A stretch of 64,000 nucleotides of DNA from a virus (Duplodnaviria; Heunggongvirae; Uroviricota; Caudoviricetes). The translations under genes were made by a program, and so were the position numbers. Location: IMG/VR virus record IMGVR_UViG_2687453623_000004. One strand, given 5' to 3'. The notes beneath the pieces were generated by a model. That model ran no database searches, was not told where the DNA came from, and was given only the letters and a program-made list of their open reading frames with translations. Positions 53,011 through 60,385 of this stretch are shown here, piece by piece. Every line of letters starts with the position of its first letter. Position 1 is the first letter of the stretch.

Positions 53011-54044
53011 TGAGCAAGAAAAAAGGGAAAACACCGCAACCTGCGGCAAAAAAAATGACCGCCAGCGCCCCGAAAATGGAGGCATTCACCTTTGGTGATC
53101 CGGTGCCGGTACTCGACCGCCGTGACATTCTGGATTATGTCGAATGTATCAGTAACGGCAGATGGTATGAACCCCCGGTCAGCTTTACCGGTCTGGCAAA
53201 AAGCCTGCGTGCTGCCGTGCATCACAGCTCACCGATTTACGTCAAACGTAATATTCTGGCTTCAACGTTTATCCCGCACCCGTGGCTTTCCCAGCAGGAT
53301 TTCAGCCGCTTTGTGCTGGATTTTCTGGTGTTCGGTAATGCGTTTCTGGAAAAGCGTTACAGCACTACCGGTAAGGTCATCAGACTGGAAACCTCACCGG
53401 CAAAATATACCCGCCGTGGCGTGGAGGAGGATGTTTACTGGTGGGTGCCGTCCTTCAACGAGCCGGCACCTTTCGCGCCCGGCTCCGTGTTTCATCTGCT
53501 GGAGCCGGATATTAATCAGGAGCTGTACGGCCTGCCGGAATATCTCAGCGGCCTTAACTCTGCCTGGCTGAATGAGTCGGCCACGCTGTTCCGCCGCAAG
53601 TATTACGAAAACGGCGCACATGCCGGATACATCATGTACGTCACCGATGCCGTGCAGGATCGCAACGATATCGAAATGCTTCGCGAAAACATGGTGAAGT
53701 CGAAAGGCCGCAACAACTTTAAAAACCTGTTTCTCTATGCCCCACAGGGAAAAGCCGACGGCATTAAAATTATCCCGCTCAGTGAAGTGGCGACGAAGGA
53801 CGATTTTTTTAATATCAAAAAAGCCAGCGCCGCTGACCTGCTGGACGCGCACCGCATCCCCTTTCAGTTGATGGGCGGCAAGCCGGAGAACGTCGGGTCG
53901 CTGGGTGATATTGAGAAAGTGGCTAAGGTCTTTGTCCGCAATGAGCTTATCCCGCTACAGGACAGGATCCGCGAGATAAACGGCTGGCTCGGTCAGGAGG
54001 TCATCCGCTTTAAAAACTACTCACTGGACACTGACAACGGCTGA
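53010..54044 (+). CDS. Q: portal (capsid vertex) protein Q
   Basis: 344-aa ORF MSKKKGKTPQPAAKKMTASAPKMEAFTFGDPVPVLDRRDILDYVECISNGRWYEPPVSFTG… matching P2 gpQ; ATGA coupling with P. Confidence 0.9.
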   Translation: MSKKKGKTPQPAAKKMTASAPKMEAFTFGDPVPVLDRRDILDYVECISNGRWYEPPVSFTGLAKSLRAAVHHSSPIYVKRNILASTFIPHPWLSQQDFSRFVLDFLVFGNAFLEKRYSTTGKVIRLETSPAKYTRRGVEEDVYWWVPSFNEPAPFAPGSVFHLLEPDINQELYGLPEYLSGLNSAWLNESATLFRRKYYENGAHAGYIMYVTDAVQDRNDIEMLRENMVKSKGRNNFKNLFLYAPQGKADGIKIIPLSEVATKDDFFNIKKASAADLLDAHRIPFQLMGGKPENVGSLGDIEKVAKVFVRNELIPLQDRIREINGWLGQEVIRFKNYSLDTDNG

Positions 54045-54213
54045 ACATCGCCGCCTGCGGGCGGCTTTTTTACATCCCGTCATCACGCCCTCACACGCTC
54101 ACCACCGCACAAAACACCCCGCAGACACACCAACGCCCCGGCGCACAATCTAAACGCCATCACGACGCGCTCAGACGCTGAAAAAATAAAATCAGCACCA
54201 CCGCCAGCGCGCA

Positions 54214-54232
54214 GTGCTTTCCCCGCCTCGCC
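54214..54232. other. cos: cos cohesive-end sequence (P2-type 19-mer)
   Basis: gtgctttccccgcctcgcc is the reverse complement of GGCGAGGCGGGGAAAGCAC, which I recall as the P2 19-nt cohesive end; ~170 bp beyond Q. Confidence 0.7.
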
Positions 54233-54336
54233 CGCCCGCTTCATGGGGCGGTTTTAATGCAGATGTATGAATCCGTCAAAACCATGCCGACACTGACGGC
54301 ACTCGAATATGAAAATAACGAATGAGGCATGCAAAC

Positions 54337-54363
54337 TAATGCATCTAATGCATCTAATGCATG
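54337..54363. repeat. three tandem copies of a 9-mer (TAATGCATC/TAATGCATC/TAATGCATG)
   Basis: Directly visible in the sequence, just 3' (minus strand) of the 139-aa cargo gene. Confidence 0.8.
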
Positions 54364-54369
54364 CAAGAT

Positions 54370-54789
54370 TTAATCATGCTCTAAAGGAGGAATATCAATG
54401 TCACTTAGTTGCAGAACCTTGCGGTAAGCCTCAAAAATTATTTGATGTATATTTTTTAAGTCAGCAAGCATTCTCTGCCTTCCTTCTGGAGTGAATTTAC
54501 CATCAGCATGTTTGCGATAAAACTCATGTGCCAAGTAGTTTCTGGCTTTAAGAGCATCTGACACATGCTCCAGTGTATCAGCATCCCCCACCATCCTTGA
54601 CTTCAGTGCGTAATTCAGTTTACCCAGCGTGTACTTATCCATTTCTAGAAACTGTTTTTTCAACGACGCTATATCCCCCCCTTGCTTCATATCATACTCA
54701 GTGAGGGCATTTATTAATTCAGTCTCCAATAATTGGGCAGCTTCCGATGCATAACCAAACTTCCAATACACAGTATCAAGCGTCACCAT
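54370..54789 (-). CDS. hypothetical protein, tin/old-position cargo (no family recognised)
   Basis: 139-aa ORF MVTLDTVYWKFGYASEAAQLLETELINALTEYDMKQGGDIASLKKQFLEMDKYTLGKLNYALKSRM… with RBS ggagaa ~8 nt upstream; AT-rich context. Confidence 0.5.
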   Translation of the reverse strand: MVTLDTVYWKFGYASEAAQLLETELINALTEYDMKQGGDIASLKKQFLEMDKYTLGKLNYALKSRMVGDADTLEHVSDALKARNYLAHEFYRKHADGKFTPEGRQRMLADLKNIHQIIFEAYRKVLQLSDIDIPPLEHD

Positions 54790-55192
54790 ATAACCTATTC
54801 TCCAGATAACAAACTCTATCCGAGATTAAGCCATAATACACAAATAAGTCTAACGCATCGCTGCACTCATTGTTCCCCCCCGCTAACACTAGAAACAAGT
54901 TTCACGGCTAGCGGCGTTCTCTATCATCTGTGTGATGACGGAGCCATTCTGGATGGACTGATATCGTTAAGCAACCCGTAATTCTCCCGGACTAATTGCC
55001 CTCCAACCAACGCATCAAGCATCAGATTTTCGTGCTTCATTATCTGCTGCCGACTGTGAACAAAAGCCATCAGTTTGATACTTTCAGTTGTATTAACTCA
55101 GACACCAACTGATAGGTTACATATCCAGTATTCAATCAGATCTGACAGTTAAGAGGGACGATAACATGACAACCACCGTAACTATTTGAAAG

Positions 55193-55969
55193 CTATTTAA
55201 TACGTATGAAATCTAAAGAGTATTTAATTGATGATTTCGTTGATTGAAACCATTTCAAATGCGACCACTCTGGGCCTGACAATAGAGTCAGTAGCGTTTT
55301 TTTATCTCTTTCCTTCATTCTTAACCCAAAAGCTATAGAATTGACCGCTAAAGGTTCAAATTTCCTTGCTCCAAAATTCTCCACAATCAATCGGCGCTCC
55401 CTTTCATATTTCCAACTTGTGTACTTTGTCGTTAAAATAGAAAGTAAAATATCCCCGCAAATATTATCAAACCCGTTAAGGCATTCATTATCCTCAAAAT
55501 AATGAATACGTTTAACAATATCATCAAAGGGATAATTATCCTGATATTCCACATCTGCTTCCAAAAAAGAAACCCCAGCTTTCTTCAAATACTCCTCTTT
55601 AAAGCCAATGCAAATACCTTTATGTTCATCGGCATAATGTGACCACATCAATTGATTTTTCCTCGCTTTACTAAAGGAACAAATTCCGACTTGCTGCAAT
55701 GACTGTTTAAGATATCTCTCATATTTAATTCTCATATCAAGAGGCAGTGGATAATGTTTCCAAACAGCATCAAGCACATTTGAAAATGAAGAATTTGCTT
55801 CAAAAGGATCATTAAGAGTATCTGGTTTTGCAAACCATAACTCACGATTCAATAACAGCTTCAGATTGTTTTTATCAAACTTACGATACTTAAATAAAAT
55901 TCCTGGCTTTGTTATGTGTATCACATCCTCTCCTGTTAATTCACAATTCTTATTAAAAACAACAAACAC
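55193..55969 (-). CDS. hypothetical protein, possibly DUF2971-like (start may be GTG at 55924)
   Basis: 258-aa frame; segment …ILFKYRKFDKNNLKLLLNRELWFAKPDTLNDPFE… resembles the N-terminal signature I associate with DUF2971; first codon is GTG, and an alternative GTG at 55924 has a better RBS (ggagagg). Confidence 0.45.
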   Translation of the reverse strand: MFVVFNKNCELTGEDVIHITKPGILFKYRKFDKNNLKLLLNRELWFAKPDTLNDPFEANSSFSNVLDAVWKHYPLPLDMRIKYERYLKQSLQQVGICSFSKARKNQLMWSHYADEHKGICIGFKEEYLKKAGVSFLEADVEYQDNYPFDDIVKRIHYFEDNECLNGFDNICGDILLSILTTKYTSWKYERERRLIVENFGARKFEPLAVNSIAFGLRMKERDKKTLLTLLSGPEWSHLKWFQSTKSSIKYSLDFIRIK

Positions 55970-56041
55970 TAAAAAAAATCATGAAAGGGGTGCATTAAAA
56001 ACACCCCTTAAGATCATTAAAACAGCATTAAATGCCGTTCG

Positions 56042-56548
56042 CTATAACTTTTCCTCCAATTCTTTTTCGTTTATTACTGTATACAACCTATTTATAAACG
56101 AGACATTTCTCCAAATAAGAACAATAACGCATGACAGTTGAGTCAGTAATATACTCAAGATATATACACAACTCACACCTTTAATAAGGTGACGATTGTT
56201 CGCATAGAAATCCGTACCGCGGAGAACAGCATTAAATGCGTAAAAAGCAATAATAAAAATTAATACAGTAGCGGACATAATGATAATAAGAATCATACCT
56301 TCTATGCGCTTCGCTTCACTTTTGCTTGCTAAAAAATCCACTTTTTCAGATTTCATCAAACCAGCGATTGCATTTGGATAGAGATAAGCTAGCCAAATAC
56401 CAGCAATTGCAAAAATCATCGCGGACGTATTTTGCAAAACACCAAGAAGATCAACAACATATGAATATTTGACGCTTTCTGAAATGCTAAAACCGCCAAC
56501 AAGCAGAACGAAGGCCATGAGAATCCCAATAAGGATCTTTATTATCAC
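56042..56548 (-). CDS. four-helix integral membrane protein (candidate effector), translationally coupled to the upstream gene
   Basis: 168-aa ORF starting with GTG 2 nt after the upstream TGA, with RBS ggagga inside the upstream gene's last codons; four hydrophobic segments. Confidence 0.6.
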   Translation of the reverse strand: MIIKILIGILMAFVLLVGGFSISESVKYSYVVDLLGVLQNTSAMIFAIAGIWLAYLYPNAIAGLMKSEKVDFLASKSEAKRIEGMILIIIMSATVLIFIIAFYAFNAVLRGTDFYANNRHLIKGVSCVYILSILLTQLSCVIVLIWRNVSFINRLYTVINEKELEEKL

Positions 56549-56549
56549 A

Positions 56550-57710
56550 TCATCCTCCTATAGCGACCTCATTGTTATTTCCCGAAGGTATAACTTGAGT
56601 TTTATCAATCTCATAACCATCGAGACCACTTACGAGTTCTTTTCGTTTATCATTAATTAACTCTGCCAATTTCTCAGCCGAGATATGTGCGTTATCATTT
56701 ACAGTATAAGTAGCATTCAAATAATCACGCATAACATATTCATCTAACCACTTAGTCTGCCCATTCTTACCATCCTGTTTGAAGCCGATATTGTTCCAAG
56801 AAGAGCCGAAAGCATAATCCTCTTCATAAAAATCGAAAAGTTCGTCAATTTGCTTTTCAGTTGGTCTTTCTTCAATAATTAACTCTATCTGTCGTTCTTT
56901 ATGAGTCTTAGGTACTTCATCACGTAATACAGGAAATTTATCAAAAGCCTTTACCCACCAAGCTCTTTTATCTGGAACTTTAGCTCCAATTGTATCTCTT
57001 ATTACAATATGTGTTATAGAGTCACGAATCTTCTTTATATTTATACGCCCAGCTTTTTTCATATACTGCTGCGCTTCAAATAAAAATCTTACTCGTGAAC
57101 TTCCGTCATCACTTTCAAATGTAACAACACTAAACTTTATGTCTTTCCCACCTGGATTTGGTCTGCATACTTCTGCAATTTTACGCCCGGGATATGGCAT
57201 TCTGAAATTAGCATAATCTCTAATATAGCGACTAAAAAGATAAGTGTCTGAGTTTGAGTGAGGGAAACGAATTGCAGCAAATTTATTGAACTCAGGGATG
57301 TACCAGTAATAACATGGCTTACCCCAAATATATTTAACCCCATCAGTCATATCATCCGAAAGCATCTTAACGTCACTAGATGATGAATTTACCTGTGAAT
57401 CTGGCGCAACCCCCTGAAGATTACCATTGCCATCAAGTTCTGATTTCCAAAGCACAAAAAAATAATCGCCTGTCTTTTCATCTTTATGCACACCTCGACA
57501 ATAAACCTTTTTCCGCAGTCTAGAGTCATCAACCAATGGTAGGGTTTCTTCAAAAGAACGAGAACAAACCCAGTTGGACAGGGAGTCTAATATATTTACA
57601 ATATCCGTGCTTTTTTGAACTTCATCCTTAAGATTGTAAAAACCAGCTTTCGTTACATCAAAAAATGTTAAGCGCCCTGCTTCTTCAGCCATGATACTAC
57701 CTTGCAACAT
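56550..57710 (-). CDS. hypothetical soluble protein (~380 aa), first gene of a two-gene cargo operon (no family recognised)
   Basis: 386-aa ORF (likely start at the second ATG, 57692, which has an upstream aagg) MLQGSIMAEEAGRLTFFDVTKAGFYNLKDEVQKSTDIVNILDSLSNWV…; ~390-bp AT-rich upstream intergenic region. Confidence 0.6.
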   Translation of the reverse strand: MLQGSIMAEEAGRLTFFDVTKAGFYNLKDEVQKSTDIVNILDSLSNWVCSRSFEETLPLVDDSRLRKKVYCRGVHKDEKTGDYFFVLWKSELDGNGNLQGVAPDSQVNSSSSDVKMLSDDMTDGVKYIWGKPCYYWYIPEFNKFAAIRFPHSNSDTYLFSRYIRDYANFRMPYPGRKIAEVCRPNPGGKDIKFSVVTFESDDGSSRVRFLFEAQQYMKKAGRINIKKIRDSITHIVIRDTIGAKVPDKRAWWVKAFDKFPVLRDEVPKTHKERQIELIIEERPTEKQIDELFDFYEEDYAFGSSWNNIGFKQDGKNGQTKWLDEYVMRDYLNATYTVNDNAHISAEKLAELINDKRKELVSGLDGYEIDKTQVIPSGNNNEVAIGG

Positions 57711-58105
57711 GTTTAAAATGACTACATTCTATACTTAGCAAGCAAAAGTGCTCACTGGTAATTTAAACAGCAGAAAACAACTGTTTATGCATGCAGTATC
57801 ATAACAAAGTTCCACGTCACAGCGAAAGATAAGCAAACTTAGGCATCTTAATTACATTAGAATCCAACTTAACTTAGATTTCCCTGCTCCATTTTCCCAC
57901 ACATCACATGCTTGTGGGAATGCAGAAGCATAAGACCAGCCATAACTCTTAGGTAGCTGACGTTGGTCAAAATAACCACGTTAAGCTTTGCCCTCAGGCA
58001 TATATGCATACAACTCTCAGAGCGGTTTACGGTTCCCATTCCATACTATAATCTTGGAATCAATCGATGATCTGATTAATCTCAGTAGTATATTCATGTC
58101 AATCA

Positions 58106-60385
58106 TCATTGATAATATGTTGAGAGTCCCGGCCATTCGTCAGCGACCGGATACATGAATTTTTTCCCGTCATAATTTACTGTTGCCCCACGCGCCAGCG
58201 CCTCAAGCTCCCATCGCTGCGGCCTGATACCGTTCTGAGCAAGGTCAACGCGGATACGGGTAATTTGCAATCGTTCCGACCGGCTCAGTCTGGCCGATGG
58301 TGCAATTTCATGTGGTTTTAACGTGCTTCCGTTTCTTTGCTGGCGGTTTGGTCTTCTCAGTCCGTGTTTTAATGCCCCCCTGAGCGCCCTCACGACCTCC
58401 GGGTCACTCCATTCGATGACACCGTCATCAACCAGATTAAGCACTGCTGAGGCGTGTTCAGAAGGCGTGGGAGCCGGTGACGAAGTATCACCACCGGTGA
58501 GCTTTCCACAGTTATTGACAGGACTCCGAGGCGCGGCGATGCCGCTTTTTAAAGTCAAAGGCTCAACGACCGGAACTTTCGGTACAATGCGCCAGTCCGT
58601 CGTTCTGGTGATATGAATATGACGCGCGCCGAGATGCGGCGCGTAAATGCCGACCACTCTCTCGACTTCTTCCTCGTACTCGTTAACGTCATCCGACGGG
58701 CTACGGGCGACCCTGACAGTCTGACAATCGCGCGGGACATTTGCCCCACCCTGCGCGCTGATATACAACGCAAAATCACCACTGTCTGCGGCGGCGCGTG
58801 CAGCCTCGACGCGCTCGTCAAACTCATCAGCAATGCTGACGCCGCGAGGCAATTTGCGTAGTTCACGGTAAGCCCCCATTGTCGGCAGGCCAACCGTTTT
58901 AAATTGCGGAATGCGCCACGTTGACGCCCATGCGGTAACAGCCGCGGCAGTATCTTTCAGCGGTCTGCCGGTATCGTTATCGAGCTGCCCATCCAGTGCA
59001 TAGCCGTCGATATTTTTTGAGATGTATTTCGCGATATACCCCGCAGCACCGCCCCGATTAAGATGTTTTGCCTGAAAACGGTTTCGCGCGGCACCTCTTT
59101 CGTCGCCATCCTCTTTGAGCGCATAGCGACGCATGATTTCGATAATCTGGTTACGCTGGCGTGGATTACAAAAAAGCATCATATGCCAGTGTGGCGTTCC
59201 GTCATGGTGTGGCTCGACGACACGCAAACCGTAGGCCTGTAAATCATTATCCTTGAATGCCGTGCGCATCAGGCTCCAGATACGGCAGAGATAACGCTGC
59301 GCATCCTTTGGATTAAATGCCTCATCGTTCCAGCCGTGATTAAGCTGAACGGTTTTACTTTCGCCTTTTCCGACCTGACGTGTCGGGTGATACTTTGACG
59401 GTGCGGTCAGCGTGATAAACATCCCCACATCACCCTCTGCGGCGGCGTAACGCTCAATACCGGCGATGGTGTTCATCAGCTCCATCCGGCGAATTTCTGG
59501 ATTAGAAATACTGCCCATCACCTTACTGATAAGGTCGATGCGCTCGCCGGTTTCCCTGTTTTCAAGGTCACACGATTTAAGAAATTCCAGATTTGCCTGG
59601 CGGCGTGCACGCACATCACGAATGGCGTGTTTACTGGCATAAGGTGAGCGGTCTTTATTAACCTCCCCGACAGCTATCAGTAACGCTTCATGCCAGCGCA
59701 TACGCTGTCCTTTAAGCTGATGAGTCCACCACTCATCATTAAACAGACGGGCAATGGCAGAATATGCCTGCCTCGTGGTCATCTGTCCTTTACGGTATTT
59801 TTTCCAGTAGAGCGGGGAAATATTGAAAGCACGTGCAGCGCCAGCAACATGACCATACAGATGCGCCTGCGCCTCATCCGTAAACAGCGATTCTTTTTCG
59901 CCATGTGCATCAACCCATGCATCGCAGAGTTCCTCATACATCATGAAAAGCTGCGATGAAATACGGGCGGCAAACTTTTTCAGCTCCTTGTCATTCATCC
60001 CCGGCAGACGCGCATAATGGTCACGCTCTGTCAGAAACAGCAACGACGCGTCGGTGTTCATTTCATGGCGCTGATTAACGCGCTCAATGCGCGGCCATAA
60101 ACGACGCTGAAAAGTGGATGTGAGGAAATAAAACCCGTGCACCGGGCTTTTAGTGCGCCGGATGTAGTCGTAGCGTGAAGTAAACAGCGAGCGCAAAAAA
60201 TAAGGCAGGCGGTTAATCGTGGATAAAACACCTTGCACCTGACGCATCTCGTCACGTGTAAGGGGTCTTTCGCGCCCGACAGCCTCGCGTGGCGCGTTCC
60301 ATGCATAAGCACCGGTAAACGTCTTACCGGTGCCTGCGGCAAATGCTGACGGAGGGACAAAACGCCCGGAGGCTTTAACGGCCAT
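58106..60385 (-). CDS. A: replication initiation protein A (rolling-circle nickase)
   Basis: ~760 aa from ATG 60385 (MAVKASGRFVPPSAFAAGTGKTFTGAYAWNAPREAVGRERPLTRDEMRQVQGVLSTINRLPYF…), matching P2 gpA. Confidence 0.9.
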   Translation of the reverse strand: MAVKASGRFVPPSAFAAGTGKTFTGAYAWNAPREAVGRERPLTRDEMRQVQGVLSTINRLPYFLRSLFTSRYDYIRRTKSPVHGFYFLTSTFQRRLWPRIERVNQRHEMNTDASLLFLTERDHYARLPGMNDKELKKFAARISSQLFMMYEELCDAWVDAHGEKESLFTDEAQAHLYGHVAGAARAFNISPLYWKKYRKGQMTTRQAYSAIARLFNDEWWTHQLKGQRMRWHEALLIAVGEVNKDRSPYASKHAIRDVRARRQANLEFLKSCDLENRETGERIDLISKVMGSISNPEIRRMELMNTIAGIERYAAAEGDVGMFITLTAPSKYHPTRQVGKGESKTVQLNHGWNDEAFNPKDAQRYLCRIWSLMRTAFKDNDLQAYGLRVVEPHHDGTPHWHMMLFCNPRQRNQIIEIMRRYALKEDGDERGAARNRFQAKHLNRGGAAGYIAKYISKNIDGYALDGQLDNDTGRPLKDTAAAVTAWASTWRIPQFKTVGLPTMGAYRELRKLPRGVSIADEFDERVEAARAAADSGDFALYISAQGGANVPRDCQTVRVARSPSDDVNEYEEEVERVVGIYAPHLGARHIHITRTTDWRIVPKVPVVEPLTLKSGIAAPRSPVNNCGKLTGGDTSSPAPTPSEHASAVLNLVDDGVIEWSDPEVVRALRGALKHGLRRPNRQQRNGSTLKPHEIAPSARLSRSERLQITRIRVDLAQNGIRPQRWELEALARGATVNYDGKKFMYPVADEWPGLSTYYQ

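What the first reader, a model, noticed from the sequence alone, without database searches (positions are those of the whole stretch)
54233..58105. AT-rich, non-P2 cargo block occupying the P2 tin/old accessory position between cos and gene A
In P2 this interval (between replication gene A and cos) holds tin and old. Here it is replaced by ~3.9 kb of visibly AT-rich DNA with four minus-strand genes (139 aa; ~250 aa DUF2971-like; 168-aa four-helix membrane protein; ~380-aa soluble protein). None resembles Tin or Old. The equivalent position in P2-like prophages is a reported hotspot where diverse anti-phage systems are exchanged (established knowledge), so this block is the strongest candidate in the window for a defence system, possibly one not yet described.
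Basis: partly seen in the sequence, partly recalled or inferred. Interest (0 to 1): 0.85.

Follow-up and report, generated by a model that had tools for sequence, protein, structure and literature searches.

The report
Rex-like pair plus DUF2971 prophage cargo
The AT-rich block next to the cos site of this P2-like prophage is real, but it is a mosaic of already catalogued pieces: a lambda-Rex-like sensor and membrane-protein pair, a predicted ADP-ribosyltransferase, and two small genes shared with phage PSP3. All are plausible anti-phage genes, and none has been shown to work in E. coli.

Summary
Window 54233-58105 lies between the P2 cos site (54214-54232) and gene A, has 32-44% GC against 53-60% in the flanks, and carries the four minus-strand genes described.

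It is not one undescribed system. It splits into modules.

- **g1 and a small ORF.** g1 (139 aa) and a truncated 48-aa ORF are homologs of phage PSP3 gp38 and gp37. Their homologs occur in other P2-like prophages with different cargo.
- **A 2.7-kb mobile cassette (55178-57878).** It also occurs in a Klebsiella lambdoid prophage and in an IS1-flanked E. coli island.
  - g4+g3 match PADLOC candidate PDC-M18. They are homologs of the "RexA + 4TM" pair that Rousset et al. 2022 cloned from a P4 satellite; it gave no protection against eight phages.
  - g2 is a DUF2971 protein (PADLOC PDC-S31), a predicted ADP-ribosyltransferase with its Tyr and ExE motifs intact.

The exact four-gene arrangement is already listed in Rousset Table S5A.

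My best reading is a Rex-type abortive-infection pair with an independent DUF2971 toxin beside it. Defence function is inferred, not shown. Interest is modest.

The parts
54214..54232 (.). P2-type cos core (gtgctttccccgcctcgcc, the reverse complement of GGCGAGGCGGGGAAAGCAC). It marks the left edge of the hotspot.
   Evidence: Read directly. The same motif is in the cos-proximal fragments cloned by Rousset et al.. The terminator-like hairpin 54232-54251 abuts it.
54370..54789 (-). g1: a 139-aa all-helical protein, homolog of PSP3 gp38 (phrog_12893). It is a separate module, not part of the mobile cassette. Function unknown. The invariant RNxLxH motif (R83, N84, H88) makes a HEPN-like RNase a lead only.
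   Evidence: - ORF. PHROG match 6e-84.
- 81% nucleotide identity to PSP3 gp38.
- Homologs sit next to an HNH gene in UPEC85, and next to Tum plus an unrelated 243-aa gene in Salmonella.
- Invariant residues. AF2 model pLDDT 92.
- No Pfam or PDB sequence match.
54924..55070 (-). A 48-aa ORF, an N-terminally truncated homolog of the 68-69-aa PSP3 gp37-type protein. It is not annotated in RefSeq. Together with g1 it forms the shared gp38/gp37 module.
   Evidence: - ORF.
- 51% identity to SMS-3-5 WP_000554771 (E 2e-14) and 50% to the Salmonella 69-aa protein.
- The DNA alignment shows the 5' end is missing.
- Window 54867-55093 matches at 60-80% identity in 384 other E. coli complete genomes.
55178..57878 (-). 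A mobile three-gene cassette (g4-g3-g2 with about 170 bp of its own upstream DNA). It is found as one contiguous homologous stretch in three unrelated genomic contexts.
   Evidence: - A single blastn HSP of 86% over 55178-57878 to the E. coli NH-21 IS1-flanked island, and one of 79% over 55186-57801 to the Klebsiella lambdoid prophage.
- Contexts are shown.
55193..55969 (-). g2: a DUF2971 protein (258 aa from the first start codon; RefSeq starts at 55924, giving 243 aa). It is PADLOC candidate PDC-S31, a predicted ADP-ribosyltransferase-like toxin with Tyr112 and the E189-x-E191 motif.
   Evidence: - Pfam PF11185, 9e-11 and 43.4 bits.
- PDC-S31, 5e-47.
- Invariant N53, D54, P55, M108, W109, Y112, H116, K182, W186, E189, E191 and R193 across five phage DUF2971 proteins of 25-31% identity.
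- The ART assignment of the family comes from PMC12522546 and from Aristaios in PMC11381338.
55985..56009 (-). A terminator-like hairpin between g3 and g2 (9-bp stem, 5 G-C pairs). It is a likely boundary between the g4-g3 transcript and g2.
   Evidence: Consensus scan. This is a pattern match only; function was not tested.
56042..56548 (-). g3: a 168-aa protein with four hydrophobic segments (PADLOC PDC-M18B). It is the proposed membrane effector, analogous in topology to lambda RexB but not detectably homologous to it.
   Evidence: - PDC-M18B, 9.5e-20.
- Hydropathy segments at about 1-27, 31-49, 79-112 and 121-152. F46, G50, W52, Y57, P58, S92 and F151 are invariant, and Q137 and N148 nearly so, in 24 homologs.
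- It lies downstream of g4 on the same strand in 24 of 24 distinct loci; the gap is -8 to +29 nt in 21 of them and -50 to -74 nt in three where the longest-ORF start was taken.
- 28% identity to the pFR81 4TM protein (E 2e-21).
- No match to the PADLOC RexB model or to a RexB profile.
56550..57710 (-). g4: a soluble protein of 386 aa (380 aa from the probable start at 57692), PADLOC PDC-M18A. It has a RexA/RdgC-like fold and is the proposed cytoplasmic sensor.
   Evidence: - PDC-M18A, 9.7e-41.
- AF2 model pLDDT 77.8, pTM 0.72.
- 36% identity to pFR81 'RexA' (E 2e-60).
- 594 clusters at 50% identity match the family profile at E<=1e-3.
- Against: Foldseek found nothing, Pfam RexA does not match, and hhalign against RexA gives probability below 1%.
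57711..58105 (-). An AT-rich non-coding region upstream of g4, presumed to hold the promoter. Its proximal part (down to 57878) travels with the cassette. The distal 227 bp occur only in the 18 genomes that carry this block.
   Evidence: Homology limits. Uniqueness of 57879-58105. Promoter-like matches are no more frequent than in shuffles and are not used as evidence.

Best explanation
The block is a mosaic of three independent accessory modules that have accumulated at the cos-proximal hotspot of a P2-like prophage.

**(1) Rex-type pair, g4-g3.** This is a two-gene operon. By analogy with lambda RexAB and the P. putida RexAB-type system, g4 (RexA/RdgC-like fold, probably a DNA-binding dimer) senses an infecting phage. 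The likely signal is a replication or recombination DNA-protein intermediate, or a specific phage protein. g4 then activates the four-helix inner-membrane protein g3. g3 depolarises or permeabilises the membrane and arrests the infected cell before the phage completes its cycle.

**(2) g2.** This is a separately transcribed DUF2971 protein, an ADP-ribosyltransferase-like toxin. It probably acts as a single-gene abortive-infection module like the lactococcal Aristaios.

**(3) g1 and the truncated small ORF.** These are the PSP3 gp38/gp37-type genes that many P2-like phages carry next to cos. Their function is unknown.

**What is shown:** the anatomy, the family matches, the fold match, the strict A-to-B synteny, and the modularity.

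**What is inferred:** that the modules defend against phage, and every mechanistic step.
For: **The pair**
- PADLOC PDC-M18A and PDC-M18B matches.
- g3 has four hydrophobic segments with conserved polar residues.
- In 24 of 24 distinct loci, at 28-93% identity and across Gamma-, Beta- and Zetaproteobacteria and a Planctomycetota MAG, the g3 homolog lies immediately downstream on the same strand; the gap is -8 to +29 nt in 21 of them.
- Most of the loci whose gene content I inspected are prophage moron sites. These include the P2 hotspot, the P4 hotspot, a lambdoid replication-to-Q region, the Q-to-holin gap, and sites within or beside the tail genes. Sequenced phages also carry the pair.
- Rousset et al. 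independently annotated the P4 homolog as RexA.

**g2**
- It passes Pfam DUF2971 and matches PDC-S31.
- Tyr and ExE are conserved.
- Stand-alone DUF2971 genes occur as single inserts in other phages.
- A DUF2971 protein, Aristaios, gives an abortive-infection phenotype.
- A terminator-like hairpin separates g2 from g3.

**Modularity**
Against: - No experiment supports defence for this sequence family in E. coli. The P4-borne homolog pFR81 is listed in Rousset Table S2B among systems that were tested but not validated. The panel was lambda, T4, P1, 186cIts, CLB_P2, LF82_P8, AL505_P2 and T7.
- The RexA link is structural only.
  - Foldseek against the PDB found nothing at E<=0.001.
  - Pfam RexA does not match g4, pFR81 or any of 31 family members.
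  - hhalign against RexA alignments gives probability below 1%.
  - g3 shows no similarity to RexB.
- The g4 model is of only moderate confidence: pLDDT 77.8, and below 70 across most of residues 241-330 (six of those nine 10-residue blocks).
- g2's fold was not modelled here. The ART assignment rests on two papers and on motif conservation.
- g2 travels with the pair in all three of the closest contexts, which fits a functional link about as well as independence.
Confidence: 0.6

Rival explanations
1. g4, g3 and g2 form one integrated three-component system. The Rex-like sensor would control both a membrane effector and an ADP-ribosyltransferase effector, or DUF2971 would modulate the pair. 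This is essentially the first reader's 'one new system' reading without g1.
For: - The three genes are one contiguous homologous stretch in three unrelated mobile contexts: a P2-like prophage, a Klebsiella lambdoid prophage and an IS1-flanked island. The proteins have diverged to 77-93% identity and remain linked.
- In complete E. coli genomes, megablast found the g2 gene only together with g3-g4.
Against: - In 21 of 24 distinct loci the pair has no DUF2971 neighbour, including at 71% identity in Yersinia.
- The P4 version has two genes.
- DUF2971 genes stand alone in other phages, and PADLOC models them as a single-gene candidate.
- A terminator-like hairpin lies between g3 and g2.
Confidence: 0.13
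2. The genes are prophage accessory genes with a role other than defence. The Rex-like pair could tune the prophage's own lysis-lysogeny decision or host physiology, as lambda RexA also does. DUF2971 could act on host or competitor targets, as an effector or an addiction toxin.
For: - The homologous P4 pair gave no protection against eight phages.
- Lambda RexA acts independently of RexB on the bistable switch (abstract of PMC11077077).
- About 18% of DUF2971 proteins are predicted to be secreted effectors.
- About a quarter of P2 hotspot loci carry non-defence cargo such as partition systems.
Against: - Every Rex-like pair characterised so far excludes some phage (discussion of PMC12894663).
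- The pair is consistently inserted at moron sites of many unrelated phage types, not next to a repressor.
- Small phage panels under-detect defence, as the authors themselves state. Lambda Rex itself is invisible with wild-type T4 (established knowledge).
- The only tested DUF2971 protein is anti-phage.
Confidence: 0.2
3. All four genes, including g1, form one undescribed four-gene defence system specific to this hotspot.
For: - All four genes are on the same strand within one AT-rich block.
- The exact g1 protein was always found with the cassette in the 26 contigs read.
Against: - g1 homologs (77-81% identity) sit next to entirely different cargo in UPEC85, PSP3 and Salmonella.
- The cassette occurs without g1 in Klebsiella and in E. 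coli NH-21.
- About 400 bp, containing a decayed gp37-type ORF, separate g1 from g2.
- The components are already catalogued.
Confidence: 0.03

Closest known systems
Lambda RexA/RexB and the other characterised Rex-like pairs (P. putida RexABpp; mycobacteriophage Sbash gp30/gp31 and CarolAnn gp44/gp43)
   Same: - A prophage-borne two-gene operon with the soluble protein first and a 4-TM membrane protein immediately after it.
   Different: - No detectable sequence similarity to RexA (PF15969) or RexB.
- g4 is about 100 residues longer than RexA (380-386 aa against 279).
- The pair is not next to the prophage repressor.
- No exclusion phenotype is known.
- Whether the P. putida pair belongs to the same sequence family could not be tested.
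PADLOC candidate PDC-M18, equal to Rousset et al. 2022 P4-hotspot system 4, cloned as pFR81 'RexA + 4TM'
   Same: - Direct sequence-family membership: PDC-M18A 1e-40 and PDC-M18B 1e-19.
- 36% and 28% identity to the pFR81 proteins.
- Same gene order, and the same kind of cos-adjacent hotspot.
   Different: - Here the pair sits in the helper phage (P2-like) rather than the satellite.
- It has diverged substantially from pFR81.
- It is fused into a cassette with a DUF2971 gene.
- pFR81 showed no protection against eight phages.
Aristaios (Lactococcus plasmid DUF2971 abortive-infection protein), PADLOC PDC-S31, and DarT-type DNA ADP-ribosyltransferases
   Same: - DUF2971 domain above the Pfam threshold, and PDC-S31 models matched.
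- Conserved Tyr and ExE, as described for the family.
- A single gene with no adjacent antitoxin-like gene.
   Different: - Aristaios is 316 aa and comes from a Gram-positive plasmid; the relationship is at domain level only and was not measured here.
- Unlike DarTG, there is no macrodomain (DarG) partner in the block.
- The target (DNA or protein) and the activity are unknown.
P2 old and tin
   Same: The same genomic position, between cos and gene A, in a P2-like phage.
   Different: No match to any PADLOC model other than PDC-S31, PDC-M18 and one weak CARF_TM model at E<=1; Old and Tin were not compared directly. Different domain content.
PSP3 gp38 and gp37
   Same: - g1 shares 81% nucleotide identity with gp38.
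- The 48-aa ORF aligns with gp37-type proteins.
- The order next to cos is the same.
   Different: - The gp37-type ORF has lost its first 18-19 codons here.
- PSP3 carries tumA/tumB between these genes and A, where this window has the cassette.

Membership tests
Rex-type (lambda RexAB-like) abortive-infection pair | Cytoplasmic component with the two-domain RexA fold (structural relative of RdgC) | tested here: met
Rex-type (lambda RexAB-like) abortive-infection pair | Sequence membership of the RexA family (Pfam PF15969) | tested here: not met
   No hit at E<=1 for g4, at E<=10 for pFR81, or for any of 31 family members. Lambda RexA scores 1e-97 as a positive control. hhalign probability is below 1%.
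Rex-type (lambda RexAB-like) abortive-infection pair | Partner is a small inner-membrane protein with four transmembrane helices, encoded directly downstream | tested here: met
   Four hydrophobic segments. Downstream on the same strand in 24 of 24 loci; the gap is -8 to +29 nt in 21 of them.
Rex-type (lambda RexAB-like) abortive-infection pair | Partner is homologous to RexB | tested here: not met
   The PADLOC RexB model does not match g3, although it does match the pFR86 RexB-like protein. hhalign probability is about 0.1-0.3%.
Rex-type (lambda RexAB-like) abortive-infection pair | Excludes phage by sensor-triggered membrane depolarisation or growth arrest, with both genes required | not testable with these tools
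   This needs plaque assays, A over-expression with and without B, and membrane-potential dyes. The only experimental datum on a homolog is negative (pFR81).
PADLOC PDC-M18 (two-gene defence candidate) | Both the A and the B profile are matched by adjacent genes | tested here: met
   PDLC04494 at 9.7e-41 over residues 7-361, and PDLC04500 at 9.5e-20 over residues 1-145. The genes are 1 nt apart.
DUF2971 / PADLOC PDC-S31 / Aristaios-type ADP-ribosyltransferase-like protein | DUF2971 domain above Pfam's gathering score | tested here: met
   43.4 bits against a cut-off of 22. PDC-S31 at 5.4e-47.
DUF2971 / PADLOC PDC-S31 / Aristaios-type ADP-ribosyltransferase-like protein | Conserved motif II Tyr and motif III ExE of the modified H-Y-E catalytic core | tested here: met
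   Y112, E189 and E191 are invariant in an alignment with five phage DUF2971 proteins of 25-31% identity. The motif definition is from PMC12522546.
DUF2971 / PADLOC PDC-S31 / Aristaios-type ADP-ribosyltransferase-like protein | ART fold, NAD+-dependent ADP-ribosylation, and an anti-phage phenotype | not tested
   The structure-prediction quota went to g4 and g1. No PDB sequence match. Activity needs biochemistry.
DarTG toxin-antitoxin | Adjacent macrodomain antitoxin (DarG) | tested here: not met
   No macrodomain or other Pfam domain in the neighbouring genes, and no DarTG match in PADLOC.
P2 Old / Tin exclusion genes | Sequence similarity to Old (OLD-family nuclease/ATPase) or Tin | tested here: not met
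   The four proteins match no PADLOC model other than PDC-S31, PDC-M18 and one weak CARF_TM model at E<=1, and no ATPase or nuclease Pfam domain. They were not compared directly with the P2 Old and Tin sequences.
HEPN ribonuclease (considered for g1) | Rx4-6H motif | tested here: met
   R83-N84-x-L86-x-H88 is invariant in 19 homologs down to 34% identity.
HEPN ribonuclease (considered for g1) | HEPN four-helix fold or profile match | tested here: inconclusive

The most novel reading that the evidence does not exclude
The 2.7-kb cassette is a single three-component immune module. A RexA-fold sensor would be wired to two different effectors, a membrane pore (g3) and a DUF2971 ADP-ribosyltransferase (g2). 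The perfect 16-nt complementarity between the g4 leader or promoter region and the interior of g3 would then be part of a mechanism that sets the critical A:B stoichiometry.
Probability: 0.12. Interest if true: 0.6.

Novelty: new member of a known kind. Interest (0 to 1): 0.35.

Why it matters
**Scale.** Only five Rex-like systems have been characterised (PMC12894663). The g4 family has about 600 clusters at 50% identity. It is spread over many phage types and several phyla, and always carries the same 4-TM partner. If this family really is Rex-type, it would be a very large set of Rex-like exclusion systems compared with the five characterised so far.

**Clinical lineage.** One member sits in a prophage whose hotspot block is identical in 18 complete E. 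coli genomes. They include human clinical isolates, one of them typed O25:H4.

**Defence cargo.** It would also add an E. coli DUF2971 toxin to the list of defence cargo.

**The open question.** What triggers these systems, given that a homolog was silent against eight standard phages? Lambda Rex shows the same behaviour: it is only seen with T4 rII mutants.

**Limits.** None of this is a new kind of system, and the locus itself is already catalogued.

Tried and rejected
**The RexA link for g4**
- phmmer and hmmsearch of g4 and its family against PDB sequences found nothing relevant.
- hhalign of the A family against lambda RexA alone, against a four-member RexA alignment, and against that alignment plus pFR86, gave probability below 1%. 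The same region (RexA 41-114 against g4 67-154) aligned each time.
- I did the same for g3 against RexB and found nothing.
- Pfam RexA does not match pFR81 by hmmscan, so Rousset's 'RexA' label must come from a more sensitive profile method.
- pFR86 'RexAB-like' from Rousset is not homologous to this pair.

**Extending the family and the P. putida question**
- Searching again with a wider alignment (A3) did not extend the named homologs.
- A3 was too divergent for the genome scan, so A1 was used instead.
- I could not obtain the PP_5643/PP_5644 sequences. Whether the validated P. putida system belongs to PDC-M18 stays open.

**g1 as a HEPN protein**

**Other checks**
- Rfam found nothing in 53900-58400.
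- Promoter-like matches are not enriched over shuffles, so I place no promoter.
- The 243-aa gene next to the Salmonella g1 homolog is unrelated to g2, despite having the same length as g2's RefSeq form.

Full report
**1. The observation**

The window between the portal gene (ends at 54044) and replication gene A (ends at 58106, minus strand) holds the 19-nt P2 cos core at 54214-54232. After it come four minus-strand ORFs of 139, 258, 168 and 386 aa. GC is 0.32-0.44 across the block, against 0.53-0.60 in the packaging genes and 0.50-0.58 in gene A.

The same 3,873 bp are 100% identical in 18 of 5,426 complete E. coli genomes, always on the chromosome. In strain CD306 the RefSeq annotation shows the expected P2-like order: portal, hypothetical, DUF2971, hypothetical, hypothetical, replication endonuclease. 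The description is therefore correct.

**2. What the proteins match**

| Gene | Pfam | PADLOC-DB | PHROGs |
|---|---|---|---|
| g1 (139 aa) | none | none | phrog_12893, unknown function |
| g2 (258 aa) | DUF2971, 43.4 bits (cut-off 22) | PDC-S31, 5e-47 | phrog_1762, unknown function |
| g3 (168 aa) | nothing above threshold | PDC-M18B, 1e-19 | phrog_37654, unknown function |
| g4 (386 aa) | none | PDC-M18A, 1e-40 | phrog_24371, unknown function |

- PDC-S31 is a single-gene defence candidate; PDC-M18 is a two-gene candidate.
- Apart from these and one weak CARF_TM match, nothing else in PADLOC-DB is matched at E<=1. I did not compare the proteins directly with P2 Old and Tin.
- NCBIfam gives nothing useful.

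**3. The locus is already catalogued**

- The four RefSeq accessions (WP_001576644, WP_001576647, WP_001576649, WP_125093550) appear together in Table S5A of Rousset et al. 2022 (PMC9122126). There they are one of the gene arrangements of the P2 hotspot, labelled 'hypothetical + DUF2971 + hypothetical + hypothetical'.
- The Domainator paper equates PDC-M18 with P4-hotspot system 4 of that study.
- Rousset's Table S2B lists plasmid pFR81, 'RexA + 4TM', from a P4-like satellite of E. coli IAI75. Its two proteins are 36% identical to g4 (E 2e-60) and 28% identical to g3 (E 2e-21).
- Table S2B holds the systems that were cloned and tested but not validated. The panel was lambda, T4, P1, 186cIts, CLB_P2, LF82_P8, AL505_P2 and T7.
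- The authors note that their small panel under-estimates defence.

**4. Is g4 really RexA-like?**

Sequence methods available here say no.
- Pfam RexA matches lambda RexA at 1e-97. It does not match g4, pFR81 or any of 31 family members.
- PDB sequence searches are empty.
- hhalign against RexA alignments stays below 1% probability, although it repeatedly pairs the same beta-rich region.

Structure says yes.
- An AlphaFold2 model built on 21 homologs has pLDDT 77.8 and pTM 0.72.
- RdgC is exactly the relative reported for RexA itself (PMC11077077).
- Foldseek missed this.

I therefore treat g4-g3 as 'Rex-type by fold and architecture, but not a sequence-family member of lambda RexAB'.

**5. 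The pair is a conserved unit**

- A profile of the g4 family finds 594 clusters (50% identity) at E<=1e-3 among 1.84 billion representatives.
- I collected 24 distinct loci with a complete g4 homolog, at 28-93% identity. They come from Enterobacterales, Pseudoalteromonas, Pseudomonas, Burkholderiales, Mariprofundus and a Planctomycetota MAG.
- In every one of them a g3 homolog lies directly downstream on the same strand. The gap is -8 to +29 nt in 21 loci; in the other three the longest-ORF start gave an overlap of 50-74 nt.
- g3 has four hydrophobic segments. F46, G50, W52, Y57, P58, S92 and F151 are invariant, and Q137 and N148 nearly so. Conserved polar positions of this kind would be compatible with a channel-like protein (inference).
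- Most of the loci I inspected are prophage moron sites:
  - the P2 and P4 cos hotspots;
  - the region between the replication genes and the late-gene antiterminator of a Klebsiella lambdoid prophage;
  - the Q-to-holin gap (Xenorhabdus and a metagenome);
  - sites within or just after the tail genes (Proteus, Yersinia).
- Sequenced phages of Providencia, Vibrio, Burkholderia and Pseudomonas also carry the pair.

**6. g2 (DUF2971)**

- The family has been proposed as an H-Y-E-type ADP-ribosyltransferase related to DarT and AbiGi. Motif I His is poorly conserved, motif II Tyr is strict, and motif III is ExE (PMC12522546).
- The lactococcal DUF2971 protein Aristaios is an experimentally supported abortive-infection system (PMC11381338).
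- I aligned g2 with five phage DUF2971 proteins of 25-31% identity. Y112, E189 and E191 are invariant, as are the NDP and W-x2-E-x-E-x-R contexts.
- Those phage genes are single inserts, for example between morphogenesis and baseplate genes of a Pseudomonas P2-like phage.
- No macrodomain partner is present.
- I did not model g2's fold.

**7. Modularity**

DNA comparison splits the block.
- 53900-54866 (portal end, cos and g1) is shared at 84% with a P2-like prophage of UPEC85. That prophage has an HNH gene where the cassette is here.
- 55178-57878 is a single 86% HSP with an IS1-flanked island of E. coli NH-21.
- 55186-57801 is a single 79% HSP with the Klebsiella lambdoid prophage.

So g4-g3-g2 move as a 2.7-kb cassette, with about 170 bp of their own upstream DNA.

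- g1 is 81% identical in DNA to PSP3 gp38.
- In the 400-bp 'gap' there is a 48-aa ORF (54924-55070). It is an N-terminally truncated homolog of the 68-69-aa PSP3 gp37-type protein.
- In Salmonella the g1 and gp37 homologs flank cos with Tum and an unrelated 243-aa gene as cargo.
- At greater distance the pair never has a DUF2971 neighbour; that is the case in 21 of 24 loci.
- A terminator-like hairpin lies between g3 and g2.

The simplest reading is a Rex-type pair and an independent DUF2971 gene that have become a small co-travelling 'defence islet', placed beside the resident gp38/gp37 genes. Linkage in the three closest contexts keeps a functional connection possible (rival 1).

**8. g1**

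- The AF2 model is confident (pLDDT 92) and all-helical.
- Nineteen homologs, down to 34% identity, keep an R-N-x-L-x-H motif and an acidic N-terminal helix. This resembles the HEPN Rx4-6H signature.
- No profile method supports HEPN.

I leave it as a lead.

**9. Mechanism**

The steps below are inferred, except where I say otherwise. The model follows lambda Rex and RexABpp.
- g4 dimers bind DNA non-specifically and detect a phage-specific DNA-protein intermediate or protein.
- Activated g4 engages g3.
- g3 compromises membrane potential or integrity, and the infected cell stops growing.
- The A:B ratio is expected to be critical, as it is in both characterised systems.
- g2 would independently ADP-ribosylate a nucleic-acid or protein target once triggered.

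What is shown here: fold, topology, synteny, catalytic-motif conservation, and phage-borne distribution.

What is not shown: any phenotype.

**10. Verdict**

This is defence-candidate cargo at the known hotspot, but it is neither a single unit nor undescribed. I file it as a new member of known kinds: a Rex-type pair (PDC-M18) and a DUF2971 protein (PDC-S31). Interest is modest at 0.35. That interest lies mainly in the size of this uncharacterised Rex-type family, and in the unanswered question of what triggers it.

Noticed in passing
window 56317-56332 and 57735-57750: A perfect 16-nt inverted repeat (CACTTTTGCTTGCTAA / TTAGCAAGCAAAAGTG). One arm is inside g3. The other lies 25-58 nt upstream of the g4 start, depending on which start codon is used. 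Only 1 of 300 dinucleotide shuffles of the region reaches 16 nt. In the NH-21 cassette 15 of 16 positions still pair, two of them as wobble pairs; in the Klebsiella cassette 14 of 16 pair. There is no compensatory change. It could be a long-range RNA pairing or a duplicated protein-binding site that affects g4:g3 stoichiometry, or it could be chance.
   Followed up: partly
window 54924-55070 (minus strand): An unannotated 48-aa ORF. It is a truncated homolog of the 68-69-aa PSP3 gp37-type protein found in several hundred E. coli P2-like prophages. The first 18-19 codons and the upstream sequence are missing here.
   Followed up: yes
window 54245-54261 and 55991-56007: The hairpin flanking cos (GGGGCGGTTTTAATGCA) is 88% complementary to the terminator-like hairpin between g3 and g2. 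This might be a vestige of an earlier cos-adjacent position of the g4-g3 pair, as in P4 satellites, or it might be chance. Seven other inverted pairs of similar quality exist in the region.
   Followed up: no
window 54336-54362: Three tandem copies of CTAATGCAT, between the cos region and the stop codon of g1.
   Followed up: no
L008-L011 (Pseudoalteromonas and marine metagenomes), locus coordinates e.g. L008 4118-5962: A conserved 614-aa ORF with no Pfam domain lies directly upstream of the g4/g3 homologs in all four loci, while the surrounding genes (NERD, HNH) vary. It may be a lineage-specific third component.
   Followed up: no
L036 and L041 (Xenorhabdus thuongxuanensis): The only g4 homolog without a g3 partner. 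It is a truncated gene (residues 7-222), and its C-terminal part is on a separate 555-bp contig. This is probably a disrupted gene or an assembly break.
   Followed up: no
window 57879-58105: The 227 bp between the cassette's upstream limit and the end of gene A match nothing else in 5,426 complete E. coli genomes apart from the 18 carriers of this block. The origin of this junction DNA is unknown.
   Followed up: partly
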